This document shows positions 1-43,125 of a stretch of DNA of 64,000 bases, in pieces. The notes under the pieces are model-generated. The model ran no database searches. It had not been told where the DNA came from and worked only from the letters and a program-made list of their open reading frames with translations. The translations under genes and the position numbers were made by a program. This DNA comes from Chrysomallon squamiferum (taxonomy: Eukaryota; Animalia; Mollusca), in contig CM022679.1 of NCBI GenBank assembly GCA_012295275.1, forward strand, positions 29,388,001 through 29,452,000, in the 5' to 3' direction. The number at the start of each line of letters is the position of its first letter. The stretch's first letter is position 1.

Positions 1-1463
1 CTTCATGTTTTAACTTAAAATTTCAGAAGATCTGTAGACGTTATTCATAATACTAGGTGTTTTCTTTTTCATTTTGTTTTAAATCATTTTTCGGATTAAA
101 AAAAAAATTCATTCGTGAAATAAGATATGATTTTCAAAAAACGAAAAGGAAAAAAGAAGAAGAAAAAAGCTTATCTAATTTATTACGATTATTTTTATGT
201 CAGTCGTTAGTATAACATTTAACATTTTAGTTTTCAAAAGATGGAAAGTAAAGGAAGATAAAAACAGAAGAAAAGGAAACAACAAGATATGTTTTAAGGA
301 TCATATTTTATTCATCATTCAGTTTTAGAAATAAAATGATGTTTTCATGGTTGTCTTCGAAACCAATTGATTCACGTCCCTTTTCAGCTGAAAAATGAAT
401 TAAAGCTTTTATTACAATCTACACATTTTCCAAGAAAACACATCAGTATATAAATACATGTAGTTTGAACTGTTCATATAATTAACGTGCTTCATTAGTA
501 AGAATTAAACTTTGTTATTAATTAAAACCGAAAACCGTGTTAATTCTTCTCTCTCCGTACATAATGGTTATTATCTTTTCTCATCTTGAACTTAAAATTG
601 TACCGTTATTTTTTTTTTTTTTTTTTTTTTTTTTTATTATTATTATTATTATTATTATTATTATTATTATTTTAAATATAGTTCATATATAAGATAAACT
701 GATAACGTTTTCTTATATGTCAACGTTCCAAAAACATAGAAAGTTGTTTTATTTATATTTCAACCGGCGACAGTAAAATCAGTTTTAATAATAATAATAA
801 TAATGATAATAGTAGAAGTAGTAGTTGTAGTAGCAGTAGTAGAAGTAGTAGTAGTAAATGTTCTTAGACGACACTTTTGAATGCAATCATTAAGCATCCT
901 AAAAATATCAAATTTAAATTATTAAAATATTGTAATAATGAATATCGAATTTTAAATAAATAAATAATTTATTTTTATGACGAAAGCAATTTATTTTTTT
1001 ATTTTTTATTATTTTTTTATTTTTTATTATTTAAACAAAATAATTAAAACAAAATAAAGGAAAGAAAGAAAGGAAGAAGGAAACACAATTTCTTTTCGGA
1101 TTTACGATCATATCCAACTAAACAGTGATATTAGTCATCACCAACATCATAACCAACAATTAATTTATAAATATTCATTCAGCTGAAACGGTCACTTGTT
1201 AATAATTACTTGTAATAAGCGACAATCTCTCTCTCTCTCTCTCTCTCTCTCTCTCTCTCTCTCTCTCTCTCTCTCTCTCTCTCTCTCTCTCTCTCTCTCT
1301 CTCTCTCTCTCTCTGTTTGAAACTAACTTATAGCTCACAGATACTCACAAATATTCTCTATATACAAATCGTACTTACCCATAAGTGTATCGACCACTTA
1401 AAAATAAAAATAAATATAAATGAAAAAAATATACATAAATAAATAAATAAATATATATACATA

Positions 1464-1704
1464 CAGGGTGGCCCAAAAGTAGGATTACAGTTATTACGTA
1501 GGCAGTTTGTTTTAAAATATAAGCACGTTTCAAGCATTAAACAGAATCTGTTTAATCTCTGAGGTGCTCAAAATGTAAGCAGCAAGGGAAAAGTGTAAAT
1601 CCAAGTTAGATCTGAAGAATATTTTATGTTAATTGTACTTAGCAAGTAACTTCAAGCATATAAACGATAGTTTAATAAATGTAAACTACTTTTGGGCCAT
1701 CCTG
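1464..1704. mobile_element. 241-bp MITE with Tc1/mariner-like terminal inverted repeats, inside intron 3 of copy A
   Basis: Left end ta|CAGGGTGGCCCAAAAGTAG, right end CTACTTTTGGGCCATCCTG|tg (19-bp TIR with 1 mismatch) in a TA-rich site; absent from the homologous intron of the other copies. Confidence 0.8.
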
Positions 1705-2709
1705 TGTATATATATTTATATATAGCTATAATAATAATAATAATAATAATAATAATAATAATAATAATAATAATAATAATAATAATAATAATAATAATGA
1801 TGATAATGATAATGTTAATGATAATAATAATAATAATAATAATAATAATAATAATAATAATAATAATAATAATAATAATAATAATAGTAGTAACAATAAT
1901 AACATTAATTTCAGTAAATGAAAACCTCGTTACTGAAGTAAAACATTTTATCAGAGGAAAGGGACATATTGAAGTATATAAGACAGAAGAGTAATATCTG
2001 TAGTGGAATGTATTTAAATTAAAGTATATAATAGATACAATCACTATAAGTTGACAGTGGTGTACTGAAATATATAATATACATATATGATACAGTAAGA
2101 AGGTGAAAAACATAACATGGAATCCTATATATTTTTGTCTATATATATTACGATGAGAGAGAGAGAGAGAGAGAGAGAGAGAGAGAGAGAGAGAGAGAGA
2201 GAGAGAGAGAGAGAGAGAGAGAGAGAGAGAGAGAGAGAGAGGGAGAGAGAGAGAGAGAGAGAGAGAGAGAGAGAGAGAGAGAGAGAGAGAGAGAGAGAGA
2301 GAGAGAGAGAGAGAGAGAGAGAGAGAGAGAGACTGGGGAAGGGAATAATGCATGATTTGATGTGTGATGATACTCACAGTAGTTTAAAGACACGTGCCCT
2401 ACAATAATAATAATAATAATAATAATAATAATAATAATAATAATAATAATAATAATAATGGTAATAATGATTGTGGTGGTGGTGATGATGATGATAATAA
2501 ATTTACAGCTACTACTACCACTATTACTACTAGACTACAACTGCAATGATACTAGTAATATTAAAAATGCGGTAGACAATCTTGTAGTATTTTATGTGCT
2601 TTTCCAAGAACAGTAATGAGACAACTAAACAGACGTGCATCTACTACTTACAGTGATGTAGGAAACTCATGGCCAGGAATATAAATACGATAATTACAAT
2701 TCTTTGGGT

Positions 2710-3060
2710 TCATACATTGTGAAGTATATGGTTTACTTTCATGTAATATGAAATATATGCGGTATACTTTCATGTAATACGATGTATATGGTTTACGTTC
2801 AAGTAATAGGAAGTATATATGGTATACTTTCATGTAATTTGAAGTATAAGGTATAATTTCATATAATGTGATGTATATGGTACACTTTCATGTAATATGA
2901 AGTATAAGATAAACTTTCATATAATAGGATGTATATTGTTTACTTTCATGTAATAGGATGTATATTGTTTACTTTCATGTATTATGAAATATATACGGTA
3001 AACTTTAATGTAATATGAAGTATATATATACTTTCATGTAATATGAAATATATATCGTAT
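2710..3060. repeat. Degenerate ~27-bp tandem repeat (gaagtatatggtttactttcatgtaatat-like) in intron 2
   Basis: Visible periodicity; homologous arrays at ~6690-6950, 22130-22280, 28290-28380, 32955-33145 (24-bp units there) and 37640-37750. Confidence 0.75.
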
Positions 3061-40644: not shown

Positions 40645-41320
40645 GTACGTAAATAGCACCACTCCCAGACCAAATATCATACAAGTTCAAACTTCTGTTT
40701 GCCAACTTCAAAATATATACCTAACCATCTATCTGCCTATGCATATGCATACATGCATAGCTACACATGAATATTATAATGTTGACAGTTACATGTATAA
40801 TTTAATGTTCACAGTTGAGTGTATATTTCATCGTTGACACGTTTATATATTAATGCTGATGGTTACATGTATATTTTACTGTTGACAGTTACGTGAATAT
40901 TTTAATGTTGACAGTTATGTGTATATTTTAATGTCGACAGTTACATGTATATTCTAATGTTGACAGATACATGTATATTCTAATGTTGACGGTTATATGT
41001 ATATTTTACTGTTGACGGTTACGTATGTATTTCAATGTTGACAGATACGTGTATATTTTAATGTTGACAGTTACATGTATATTCTAATGTTGACAGATAC
41101 ATGTATATTTTAATGTTGACAGTTATATGTATATTTTAATGTCGACAGTTTCATGTATATTCTAATGTTGACAGATACATGTATATTTTAATGTTGACAG
41201 TTATATGTATATTTTACTGTTGACGGTTACGTGTGTATTTCAACGTTGACAGATACGTGTATATTTTAATGTGATGTTTACATTACAGATATGTCGACTG
41301 TAAGACCACCTCTCTGTCTT
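40645..41320 (+). pseudogene. Copy I relic: degenerate promoter, minisatellite (~20 units, 40775-41270) and first codons of exon 2
   Basis: gtaaatagcacc..cagacc..atcatacaagttcaaact leader with the donor deleted; ttacag|atATG TCG ACT GTA AGA at 41291, then homology ends. Confidence 0.75.
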
Positions 41321-42511
41321 TATTTGTTATTAGAAATATATACTCGTATTTTTAAAGATTTATATGACGTTGTGTCTTGATTATAAGTCAACATTATTAA
41401 TTATCAGTTTTCGACATTTTTTTGTTAAGTTTTAAAAGCTTTCTTTCATTTTTATTTTAAATAGTTTTTTAAAAATAAAATAGTTTTTCACTTGTTTTTC
41501 ACTTGGGGCTATGCGAGGTCAAGTTTATATTCCGTCACTGATCAGTTGAGTGAAAAGCAACACAGGCGAAACAACCTGCTACTTTAGTGGCTTTCTTGTG
41601 CGCATGCGCGAAGCGGCCATTTCAAACACTCGATGTTCGAGTTTACCATCTTGTTGATTTTCGAAATATTACCGTCGTAGTTGTCAAAAATGGCTGGTTC
41701 CGTGGATGATACAAATGAATGGGAACTAAGTAAAGAAAATATTCAACCTCTCAGACAAGGTCGAAAGTTTTCTTTACTGACAGCTGCTTTGCAACCTCAC
41801 TCCGACGATCAACAAAAAATTAAAGAACAGAAAGAATAAGTCTGATGAAATGAAACTCAAGGTTTTAACTTAAAATTTAAGAAGATCTGTAGACGTTATT
41901 CATAATACTATGTTTTATAATCAACCTGCGGTAATAAAATTTCGCTTTTTTATATTATGTATGTTGATTAATGTAAATGTATTTGTGAAATAAGGTGTTG
42001 TTTTCAATGAAGATAATGAAAAACTAAGAAAGATTAATTTATTACTATTCAGTCGACTCTATTGTTCTTTAATTTCACTCGTTAGCTTTACATACACGTT
42101 TCTGAAGGAAAAACAAACAAAAAACTCCAGAATTTTATTAAATATGTTTAATTTGATATTGTGCTTATAATAATCAAAATAAAGTGGCTAATCCTCTCAG
42201 TCAGTGTCTAAAATAAATTGTTTTATGAGTAAACAAAAGTTTTACCTTTATTTTGGGTTTGCTTTGTTATCAGAGTCTGCCAGTGGAATGTAGAAAGTAT
42301 GAGCAAAGCCATTCATAACAAAATATTTTTAATATTACAATTAAATTTTTTTTTTTTTTTTTTTAATTTGATATTTATACATATACACAAACACACACAT
42401 AAATATATATATACATACACATATCCACACATATATACATGATTATTTAATAATTTATATTTTTTTTAATTTTTAGATTCTTTGAAAGTGAACTGAGTTA
42501 ATCATTCATTG

Positions 42512-43125
42512 TACATAAACAGCACCACATTCAGACCAAAACTCATACTAGTTCAAACTGGCTCTTTGGACTGTAGAATAGAGAAAACTTTGAAGGTATG
42601 TATTAATTTGTCAACTTCTAAATGGACACCAGACTATCTAGCTATCTACATACTGCACATAAATATTTTAATGTTGACAGTTACATATATATTTTAATGT
42701 TGACAGTTACATATATATTTTAACATTGACAGTTACATGTATATTTTAGTGTTGACAGTTACATATATATTTTAATGTTGACAGTTACATGTATATTTTA
42801 GTGTTGACAGTTACATATATATTTTAATGTTGACAGTTACATGTATATTTTAATGTTGATAGTTACAGGTATATTTTAATTTTGACAGTTATGTGTATGT
42901 TTTAGACAGAGAATATTCAAAATCCTAAAATACATACATACATACACATGCACACATTATGTACAAACATACATATTTCTCTCTATATATATGTGAGTTG
43001 GTGTGTGTATTCCTGCATAAGTATTTTATCTGTTATATACATGATGAATCTAAGTAAATGAATCTAATAGCAGTATTAGTACTGTCTTTGCTATTCGCTG
43101 TTACAAAACTCTCCCTGCTGTCTGT
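42512..43125 (+). pseudogene. Copy J relic: family promoter and exon 1, minisatellite (~9 units) and a D-type signal peptide MNLIAVLVLSLLFAVTKLSL running into a (CT)n tract
   Basis: Leader ctctttggactgtagaatagagaaaactttgaag|gtatgt (donor 42596); ATG at 43058, LSLLFAV shared with copy D; no Cys exons found downstream. Confidence 0.65.

What the first reader, a model, noticed from the sequence alone, without database searches (positions are those of the whole stretch)
325..43125. Hidden cluster of ~11 micro-exon genes encoding hypervariable secreted twin-CX3C (helical-hairpin) peptides
Seen: seven hand-spliced intact ORFs (B-H) and four relics share one architecture: signal peptide, C-x3-C, loop, C-x3-C, and in E, F and G a K-R-D-V-N-Q tail. 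Cores: [125 protein letters not shown](pseudo) NACYKKCVARVFKLLGRYTYGMLNDCIQKC; all with an 18-residue inter-Cys loop. Most exons are 15-31 nt, so ORF finders and probably gene predictors miss them. Established: CX3C-Xn-CX3C is the motif of two-disulfide helix-loop-helix peptides such as plant alpha-hairpinins and scorpion kappa-hefutoxin. Conserved signal, variable mature region and birth-and-death duplication are typical of venom and antimicrobial peptide families. Inference: an undescribed family of defence, venom or signalling peptides; I cannot match it to a named family.
Basis: partly seen in the sequence, partly recalled or inferred. Interest (0 to 1): 0.93.

Follow-up and report, generated by a model that had tools for sequence, protein, structure and literature searches.

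The report
Vent snail's fast-evolving hairpin peptide family
Seven intact, fast-diverging genes built from tiny exons in a deep-sea vent snail (likely the scaly-foot snail) encode small peptides with no match in the databases searched, predicted to be secreted disulfide hairpins that are likely made in the shell- and scale-forming skin and likely help control the bacteria on the animal's surface.

Summary
Seven intact six-exon genes (B-H) and four relics lie in 43 kb. Each intact gene has canonical splice sites, a signal-like N-terminus and CX3C-X18-CX3C (X17 in D), and the loop is carried by symmetric 21- and 18/15-nt micro-exons. The micro-exons differ by 36-65% between older paralogues, their flanks by 6-28%; dN exceeds dS in 14 of 15 core pairs. 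The neighbouring BICC1 gene points to a peltospirid vent snail. In the published scaly-foot snail annotation, the chunk holding BICC1 has exactly seven 'novel' genes. Two carry a signal-peptide repeat found nowhere else in that table, matching C and E. Six of the seven are enriched in mantle or scale-secreting epithelium, none in the symbiont gland; one is 9-fold higher in scales of the iron-armoured population. So the genes were likely already annotated, though uncharacterised, and venom is unlikely. Best reading (0.5): cationic helical-hairpin surface-defence peptides that shape epibionts, plus one very acidic paralogue that may bind mineral ions. Exon-2 searches found no homologue. Fold, splicing and activity were not shown here.

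The parts
325..3201 (-). Relic A: exon 2 remnant (to 3134), micro-exons 2398-2378 and 1396-1379, exon 5 898-868, last exon from 387. Exon 1 and start codon missing, exon 5 donor lost, stop codon lost.
4745..7425 (-). Gene B, intact, 61 aa, cationic. Exon 1 donor after 7344; coding exons 7141-7039, 6403-6383, 5877-5860, 5369-5339, last exon from 4825.
8874..9411 (-). Relic O: orphan last exon (from 8972) with part of the preceding intron.
10500..13875 (-). Gene C, intact, 59 aa. Coding exons 12905-12809, 12501-12481, 11492-11475, 10989-10959, last exon from 10589. Extra in-frame 21-nt duplicate exon 11827-11807 with intact sites; a second duplicate near 12051-12031 lacks its donor.
16475..19180 (-). 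Gene D, intact, 82 aa, strongly acidic divergent paralogue (acidic propiece, loop 17). Coding exons 18857-18710, 18282-18262, 17867-17853, 17169-17103; last exon from 16546 begins with the stop codon.
21670..24710 (+). Gene E, intact, 61 aa. Exon 1 to 21770; coding exons 21937-22030, 22734-22754, 23296-23313, 24033-24063, last exon from 24633.
27280..30350 (+). Gene F, intact, 61 aa. Coding exons 27801-27894, 28612-28632, 29089-29106, 29773-29803, last exon from 30271.
31580..35110 (+). Gene G, intact, 61 aa, recent duplicate of F. Coding exons 32466-32559, 33377-33397, 33871-33888, 34560-34590, last exon from 35032.
36675..39430 (+). Gene H, intact, 63 aa as spliced. Coding exons 37459-37552, 38097-38117, 38506-38523, 38911-38940 (30 nt), last exon from 39350.
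40624..41306 (+). Relic I: exon-1-like stretch, minisatellite intron and only the first bases of exon 2.
41690..41839 (+). Copy of BUB1/BubR1 exon 1 (KEN box), open for 50 codons, no following exons found. Frameshifted copies start at 4310, 8453, 10001 (+) and 30784, 35545 (-). Part of the duplicated unit.
42496..43125 (+). Relic J: exon 1 plus a D-like signal-peptide exon running into a CT microsatellite; no CX3C.
52523..59860 (-). Context: 3' exons of BICC1 (Bicaudal C), used as lineage and synteny anchor; nine exons 65-94% identical to the Gigantopelta aegis protein.

Best explanation
[quoted passage not shown] Steps: (1) shown: gene structure, open frames, a hydrophobic N-terminus, four fixed cysteines, accelerated amino-acid change in the mature exons. 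(2) Inferred from sequence pattern: signal cleavage near residue 22, trimming at the basic KR/RR site in E-H, C1-C4 and C2-C3 disulfides, helices at core positions about 1-12 and 16-28 around a Gly turn at 14; mature size about 3.5-4 kDa. (3) Inferred by synteny and repeat match to a published annotation: expression in mantle and scale epithelium, not in the symbiont gland. (4) Inferred by analogy: the cationic face (net +2 to +5) engages anionic bacterial envelopes, and diversification tracks varied colonisers. D, at net -26, cannot work that way and likely has a separate role: binding Ca/Fe ions, or tempering the cationic members.
For: Gene models. Fold pattern: hydrophobic columns at 2, 6, 9-10, 16, 20 and 25, Gly at 14 in 5 of 6 cores, CX3C motifs symmetric about 14.5; one helix with hydrophobic moment of 0.47 or more in 5 of 6 cationic members; pI 8.5-9.5. 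Selection: core dN>dS in 14 of 15 pairs; signal pN 0-0.02 among C, E, F, G; core nucleotide distance 0.31-0.57 against 0.13-0.17 non-coding for older pairs; C-E nonsynonymous core vs signal P=2e-10; F-G core 4 changes, all nonsynonymous. Lineage: BICC1 exon 96% to G. aegis. Published match (PMC7142155 supplements): seven novel genes beside BICC1; the L-LLC repeat at 4-14 occurs in only 2 rows of the repeat table, both here, fitting C and E. Six of seven are mantle- and/or scale-enriched (fold 2.6-11.4), none in the gland or gill lists. Scaf10_4.7 is 9.1-fold higher in Kairei than Solitaire scale tissue. Black and white scales carry different bacterial coats (PMC12383625). Vent animals use AMPs to control ectosymbionts (abstracts of PMC5431198 and PMC7381244); plant hairpinins with this motif are mostly antimicrobial (PMC7191063).
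Against: No activity data. The link between gene IDs and window genes is inferred; no sequences of the published models were seen, and only two IDs can be tied to a gene pair. The closest molluscan analogue, mussel MgCRP-I, has the same evolutionary signature and positive charge yet showed no antimicrobial, cytotoxic or insecticidal activity (abstract). Alvinellacin, which controls epibionts, is under purifying rather than diversifying selection (abstract). Net charge is modest, E is barely amphipathic (moment 0.26/0.08), and salt would screen it. Mantle and scale epithelium are also biomineralising tissues. Synonymous distance in the cores is also raised (pS 0.21-0.59 on only 16-20 sites), pairs are not independent, and conversion of flanks could inflate the exon/intron contrast. 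The cysteine pattern alone cannot classify or predict structure (PMC7191063).
Confidence: 0.5

Rival explanations
1. The peptides are organic-matrix or mineral-modulating components of shell, periostracum and scales; D, with its Asp/Glu-rich propiece, binds Ca or Fe, and the cysteines or cationic members interact with chitin or sulfur species.
For: Matching published genes are enriched in the two hard-part-secreting tissues; one is very abundant (mean 4039 in scale vs 445 elsewhere) and 9.1-fold/4.2-fold higher in the iron-sulfide population. D is net -26.
Against: Strong diversifying change confined to exposed core positions on a fixed hairpin is more typical of antagonistic interactions (own knowledge). 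Six of seven are cationic. The shell/sclerite proteome paper (PMC11871041) uses other gene IDs, so presence in the matrix could not be checked.
Confidence: 0.2
2. They are water-borne or contact signals (aggregation, settlement, mate or self recognition) released from the skin, with receptor-driven divergence.
For: Signal peptide, dibasic processing sites, compact disulfide helices and rapid paralogue divergence; helical disulfide pheromones exist in gastropods (Aplysia attractin, recalled).
Against: No Gly-Lys-Arg amidation signal; seven highly divergent paralogues with relics suggest an arms race; gonad and nerve were not among the five tissues compared, so this is untested.
Confidence: 0.12
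3. They are defensive skin toxins against predators, blocking K+ or other channels like kappa-hefutoxin and R/XIV conotoxins.
For: The same CX3C-Xn-CX3C motif occurs in those toxins; conserved signal with hypervariable mature region; Lys/Arg next to aromatic residues in several cores.
Against: No sequence similarity detected; cores are longer (28 residues Cys to Cys, against whole toxins of 22-27 residues); the snail lives off endosymbionts (listing) and no venom apparatus is known to me.
Confidence: 0.1
4. They are canonical serine-protease inhibitors protecting the secreted organic layers, with the variable inter-cysteine loop as the reactive site.
For: Plant hairpinins VhTI and BWI-2c inhibit trypsin through an Arg in the C2-C3 loop; the variable loop here is Arg/Lys-rich.
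Against: No conserved P1 position near the turn; the loop is 18 residues and appears mostly helical, against 12-13 in VhTI and BWI-2c.
Confidence: 0.06
5. The frames are an artefact of hand splicing in repeated non-coding DNA.
For: No junction-spanning read was seen here.
Against: Fixed exon lengths, phases and splice sites at homologous positions; retention of Cys and open frames despite heavy divergence; matching expressed novel genes in a published annotation.
Confidence: 0.02

Closest known systems
Plant alpha-hairpinins (MBP-1, EcAMP1, VhTI, BWI-2c)
   Same: CX3C-Xn-CX3C motif, secreted, low sequence identity outside the cysteines, predicted antiparallel helices; antimicrobial or protease-inhibitory.
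   Different: Animal; one hairpin per precursor rather than multi-module or vicilin-linked precursors; six exons rather than intronless Tk-AMP-X genes; C2-C3 spacing 17-18 against 12-13 in VhTI and BWI-2c; no detectable homology.
R-superfamily framework XIV conotoxins (VilXIVA, FlfXIVA) and scorpion kappa-hefutoxin/OmTx (Cs alpha/alpha)
   Same: Same motif; the conotoxins are gastropod peptides with a conserved signal and variable mature region.
   Different: Non-venomous lineage, skin-type expression inferred, longer core, no similarity found; the R-superfamily signal sequence was not compared directly.
Mytilus MgCRP-I
   Same: Lineage-restricted molluscan family of short secreted cysteine peptides with conserved pre-pro region, hypervariable cationic mature region, duplication and positive selection, function open (abstract).
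   Different: Six cysteines and three disulfides there; four here, with a helical-hairpin pattern and micro-exon loop.
Schistosoma micro-exon genes (MEGs)
   Same: Secreted products, short symmetric exons that can be skipped in frame, some amphipathic helices.
   Different: MEGs have about 80% of coding sequence in symmetric 6-36 nt exons; here 15-22% (two exons), and 45-51% in any exon of 36 nt or less for the six cationic genes. Isoforms not shown. No homology.
Alvinellacin and Re-crustin (vent AMPs acting on ectosymbionts)
   Same: Proposed role: host peptides at colonised surfaces of vent animals (abstracts).
   Different: Different folds and precursors (BRICHOS-linked beta-stranded peptide; type II crustin); alvinellacin itself is conserved, not hypervariable.

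Membership tests
Alpha-hairpinin / Cs alpha-alpha scaffold | Cys motif XnCX3CXnCX3CXn with no other Cys in the mature region | tested here: met
   7 of 7 intact genes; the fifth Cys in six of them is in the signal peptide.
Alpha-hairpinin / Cs alpha-alpha scaffold | Two antiparallel helices joined by a loop | tested here: inconclusive
   i,i+4 hydrophobic periodicity and central Gly support it; no structure model of the spliced peptide was made.
Alpha-hairpinin / Cs alpha-alpha scaffold | C1-C4 and C2-C3 disulfides | not testable with these tools
   Inferred from symmetry only.
Plant alpha-hairpinin family | Plant origin; modular or vicilin-linked precursor | tested here: not met
   Snail gene, single module, six exons.
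R-superfamily framework XIV conotoxins | R-superfamily signal sequence | tested here: inconclusive
   Signal-containing exon-2 profile found nothing in 1.84 billion representatives, the 5.8-billion-cluster set or PDB; no direct comparison with R signal sequences.
R-superfamily framework XIV conotoxins | Conoidean venom-duct product | tested here: not met
   Neighbouring BICC1 places the animal with Gigantopelta, a peltospirid.
Schistosoma-type MEG | About 80% of coding sequence in symmetric 6-36 nt exons | tested here: not met
   15-22% (definition from PMC5825161).
Schistosoma-type MEG | Protein variants by alternative splicing of micro-exons | tested here: inconclusive
   Exons 3 and 4 are phase 2-2 and multiples of three, and C has a duplicated cassette; no transcript seen.
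MgCRP-I | Six invariant Cys, three disulfides | tested here: not met
   Four mature Cys.
Small Tim twin-CX3C chaperones (recalled) | No cleavable signal peptide; conserved mitochondrial intermembrane-space protein | tested here: not met
   Hydrophobic N-terminus (Kyte-Doolittle 11-mer 3.0-3.7), hypervariable core; no Pfam hit for exon pieces.
Cationic antimicrobial peptides (functional class) | Secreted, net positive, amphipathic | tested here: inconclusive
   Net +2 to +5 in 6 of 7, moment of 0.47 or more in 5 of 6; D is acidic.
Cationic antimicrobial peptides (functional class) | Antimicrobial activity | not testable with these tools
   Needs assays.

The most novel reading that the evidence does not exclude
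The cluster is a micro-exon loop library on a fixed disulfide hairpin: symmetric 21- and 18-nt cassettes are skipped, duplicated and rapidly rewritten (loops of 5, 11, 12, 18 or 25 residues), giving the scaly-foot snail a lineage-specific peptide arsenal that gardens the bacteria on its scales. The acidic member D couples this to mineral chemistry, and the population-level switch in one member helps decide between the black, iron-sulfide, Sulfurovum-dominated armour and the white one.
Probability: 0.12. Interest if true: 0.87.

Novelty: new variant of a known kind. Interest (0 to 1): 0.62.

Why it matters
The scaly-foot snail's scales carry population-specific bacterial coats and iron-sulfide mineral, and the host molecules acting at that surface are largely unknown; two searches of the held library listed no paper describing antimicrobial peptides from this snail. 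This turns seven anonymous 'novel genes' into a defined, positively selected family of 3.5-4 kDa peptides that are easy to synthesise and test. It would add an independent animal origin of the Cs alpha/alpha hairpin with a longer loop, encoded by cassette micro-exons, and one paralogue with reversed charge. One member's 9-fold difference between iron-coated and iron-free populations makes the link among host secretion, epibionts and armour directly testable.

Tried and rejected
No whole genome is held for the window, so copies outside it could not be counted; the array continues to the left edge. RNA search with 21680-22040: no RNA holder listed. Three same-study RNA contig sets laid on the D stretch 17815-18895 gave 0 contigs; a second laying on F gave no answer. 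Neither says anything about expression. Homology, all with exon-2 pieces or their alignment, never the whole spliced peptide: Pfam 0 families for 7 of 7 peptide pieces at E<=1; word-seeded search 0 of 312 candidates at 16-83 aa and 0 of 7988 at 84-2000 aa; HMMER over 1.84 billion representatives 0 at E<=0.001; PDB 0 at E<=10; Atlas best score 0.77 (plant Ole e 6-like/thionin-like, below the lead level) and no usable hit for D; a 21-nt exact motif 0 in metagenome contigs. A 30-position, mostly signal-peptide profile is weak, so these blanks do not exclude distant relatives. Earlier scan findings: none. The scleritome proteome supplements (PMC11871041) use a different ID scheme, one file was cut, one unreadable and one too large, so matrix presence is undecided. 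My first idea, peptides controlling endosymbionts in the oesophageal gland, was dropped: none of the seven matching genes is in the gland-enriched list. An octopus venom reading was dropped. No remaining BUB1 exons were recognised by eye among GC-filtered open frames of the intergenic stretches. The last-exon tree was poorly supported and not used. Assigning IDs 4.1, 4.5, 4.7, 4.28 and 4.30 to particular genes was not possible.
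Full report
1. What is in the sequence. The window is AT-rich animal DNA with many microsatellites. Its first 43 kb are built of a 4-6 kb unit, repeated on the minus strand (A-D) and the plus strand (E-J). Splicing by coordinates gives seven open precursors, B-H, of 59-82 residues. 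The layout is constant: a TATA-like box and non-coding exon 1; exon 2 (94-148 nt) with the start codon, a hydrophobic signal-like stretch and the first CX3C; exon 3 of 21 nt; exon 4 of 18 nt (15 in D); exon 5 of 31 nt (30 in H, 67 in D) with the second CX3C; and a last exon with a short tail, stop and AATAAA. All coding junctions are AG/GT. The first three coding introns are phase 2, so exons 3 and 4 are symmetric cassettes. The loop is 18 residues in 6 of 7 genes and 17 in D. C has two extra copies of exon 3, one with intact sites. Four relics are present: A (no exon 1 or start, exon 5 donor and stop lost), an orphan last exon, and two 5' fragments, I and J.

2. It is not chance, and it is evolving fast. 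Aligned at their boundaries, exons 3-5 differ at 36-65% of sites in the 14 older pairs, while two adjoining intron flanks differ at 6-28%. Over alignable non-coding DNA the distance is 0.13-0.17 against 0.31-0.57 in the 84-nt core (BLAST-aligned segments lean to the conserved). dN exceeds dS in 14 of 15 core pairs, B-C being the exception; F and G differ by four core changes, all nonsynonymous, although that count alone is not above their background (P=0.38). The signal is almost frozen among C, E, F and G (pN 0-0.02) but diverged in H (0.28-0.30). For C-E, nonsynonymous change in core versus signal gives P=2e-10, and N versus S within the core P=0.04. Random change keeps four Cys and an open frame with P=0.091 per copy at 15% divergence and 0.018 at 25%. 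Caveats: pairs are not independent, only 16-20 synonymous sites are available, and synonymous distance in the core is raised too.

3. Predicted product. In the six 28-residue cores, hydrophobic residues recur at 2, 6, 9-10, 16, 20 and 25, and position 14 is Gly in 5 of 6. The two CX3C motifs are symmetric about that turn, which fits two antiparallel helices locked by C1-C4 and C2-C3, the arrangement described for alpha-hairpinins and for kappa-hefutoxin and framework XIV conotoxins (PMC7191063, passages; PMC9897318, passages). The C2-C3 spacing is longer than in VhTI (13) or BWI-2c (12). The mature segments are about 4 kDa, net +2 to +5, pI 8.5-9.5. D is the outlier: net -9 in the core, -26 overall, with a Asp-rich propiece. 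No structure model of a spliced peptide was made, so the fold is a pattern-based prediction.

4. Whose genes. The neighbouring BICC1 SAM exon is 96% identical to Gigantopelta aegis, against 80% to Haliotis and 76% to Octopus; nine exons range 65-94% by tblastn. The animal is thus a relative of G. aegis, not that species. [quoted passage not shown] The same annotation chunk holds exactly seven 'novel' genes: 4.1, 4.2, 4.5, 4.7, 4.9, 4.28, 4.30. Two, 4.2 and 4.9, are listed with the repeat L-LLC, period 4, 2.75 copies, at a position stored as 43569, the spreadsheet date 14 April, read as 4-14; that unit occurs in only these 2 rows of the table. Exactly two window proteins, C and E, share the 11-residue stretch that fits it at 4-14. 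I take this as strong but indirect evidence that the seven genes are the same. The annotation was transcript-guided, so the genes were likely not hidden, only unnamed.

5. Where they are likely expressed. Among five tissues from five animals, five of the seven are mantle-enriched: 4.2 fold 11.4 (393 vs 4.9), 4.1 6.1, 4.9 4.8, 4.30 4.4, 4.7 3.3. Two are scale-epithelium enriched: 4.7 3.3 (4039 vs 445) and 4.28 2.6. Gene 4.5 is in no list, and none of the seven is in the oesophageal-gland or gill lists. Gene 4.7 is 9.1-fold higher in scale tissue and 4.2-fold higher in mantle of the iron-sulfide-coated Kairei animals than in Solitaire animals; it is one of about 210 rows in that table. The sections read do not discuss these genes. 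Which window gene is 4.7 is unknown. My own RNA look-ups were uninformative (see Tried and rejected).

6. Origin of the cluster. Each unit carries a piece of BUB1/BubR1 exon 1 with its KEN box (E=1e-7 to human BubR1); six copies were found, five frameshifted. In the G. aegis annotation (PMC7895826; passages and supplement search hits) two BUB1-like models lie beside BICC1 on ctg1698, and the only gene of that scaly-foot chunk with a listed G. aegis partner is BICC1. The array therefore likely grew by local duplication and inversion at the 5' end of BUB1. That annotation table may omit unannotated genes, so absence of the family from G. aegis is not shown.

7. How it most likely works. Secreted, cationic, disulfide-locked, hypervariable peptides made in exposed epithelia fit surface defence best. 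The scales bear dense bacteria that differ between black (67-84% Campylobacterota) and white animals (PMC12383625, passages), and other vent animals use AMPs on ectosymbionts (PMC5431198 and PMC7381244, abstracts). Against this: mussel MgCRP-I looks the same evolutionarily and was inactive in such assays (PMC4558851, abstract); alvinellacin is conserved rather than diversified; the charge is modest; and the same tissues build shell and scales. I give defence/epibiont control 0.5, matrix or mineral role 0.2 (higher for D alone), signalling 0.12, predator-directed toxin 0.1, protease inhibitor 0.06, artefact 0.02.

8. Comparison and novelty. It works like a Cs alpha/alpha hairpin peptide family but fails membership of plant hairpinins, conotoxin superfamilies, MgCRP-I and MEGs (PMC5825161, passages) on tested features. 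Searches with exon-2 pieces found no relative; they are weak for distant kin because the second half of the motif was never in the query. Literature searches (listings only unless cited above) showed no description of this family; subscription papers are largely outside the library. The scleritome proteome paper (PMC11871041; passages, sheet list, part 1 of the data file) could not be cross-referenced, and its unread files may bear on the matrix question. PMC9381778 was seen in passages only and not used as evidence. Verdict: a real, uncharacterised, lineage-restricted peptide family on a known convergent scaffold, with an unusual cassette gene structure and a charge-reversed member; new variant of a known kind; interest 0.62.

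Noticed in passing
window 41690-41839 (+); 4310, 8453, 10001 (+); 30784, 35545 (-): Six copies of BUB1/BubR1 exon 1 with upstream DNA ride in the repeat unit; only the 41690 copy is open, and its donor looks degraded. The working BUB1 gene was not found in the window. Short KEN-box-only transcripts are conceivable.
   Followed up: partly
window 11547-12290 (-): Internal tandem duplications of about 250 bp in gene C copy the exon-3 cassette twice; one copy keeps both splice sites and would add 7 residues to the loop.
   Followed up: partly
window 16475-19180 (-): Gene D shares the exon plan and signal but no non-coding similarity with the six others at E<=1e-5: an older, acidic paralogue placed head to head with E. 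Relic J has a D-like signal exon.
   Followed up: partly
window 12940-13650, 27470-27780, 31770-32450, 36900-37440, 40760-41270, 42660-42900: A 26-bp minisatellite in intron 1 varies widely in copy number between paralogues and may promote unequal crossing-over.
   Followed up: no
window 54900-55135 (-): The end of one BICC1 exon (about 14 codons plus donor) is repeated three times in tandem in the following intron.
   Followed up: no
window 20088-20661 (+): A 71-bp tandem repeat, 98-99% identical, sits between the divergently oriented D and E promoters.
   Followed up: no
window 24815-25345: A GC-richer non-repeated insert between E and F, with a short motif also present at about 22478 inside E intron 2; possibly a mobile-element fragment.
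   Followed up: no
window 38911-38946 (+): H exon 5 is one base shorter than in B, C, E, F, G; if its donor is not used the frame stops one codon after the last Cys, so H has two possible tails.
   Followed up: partly
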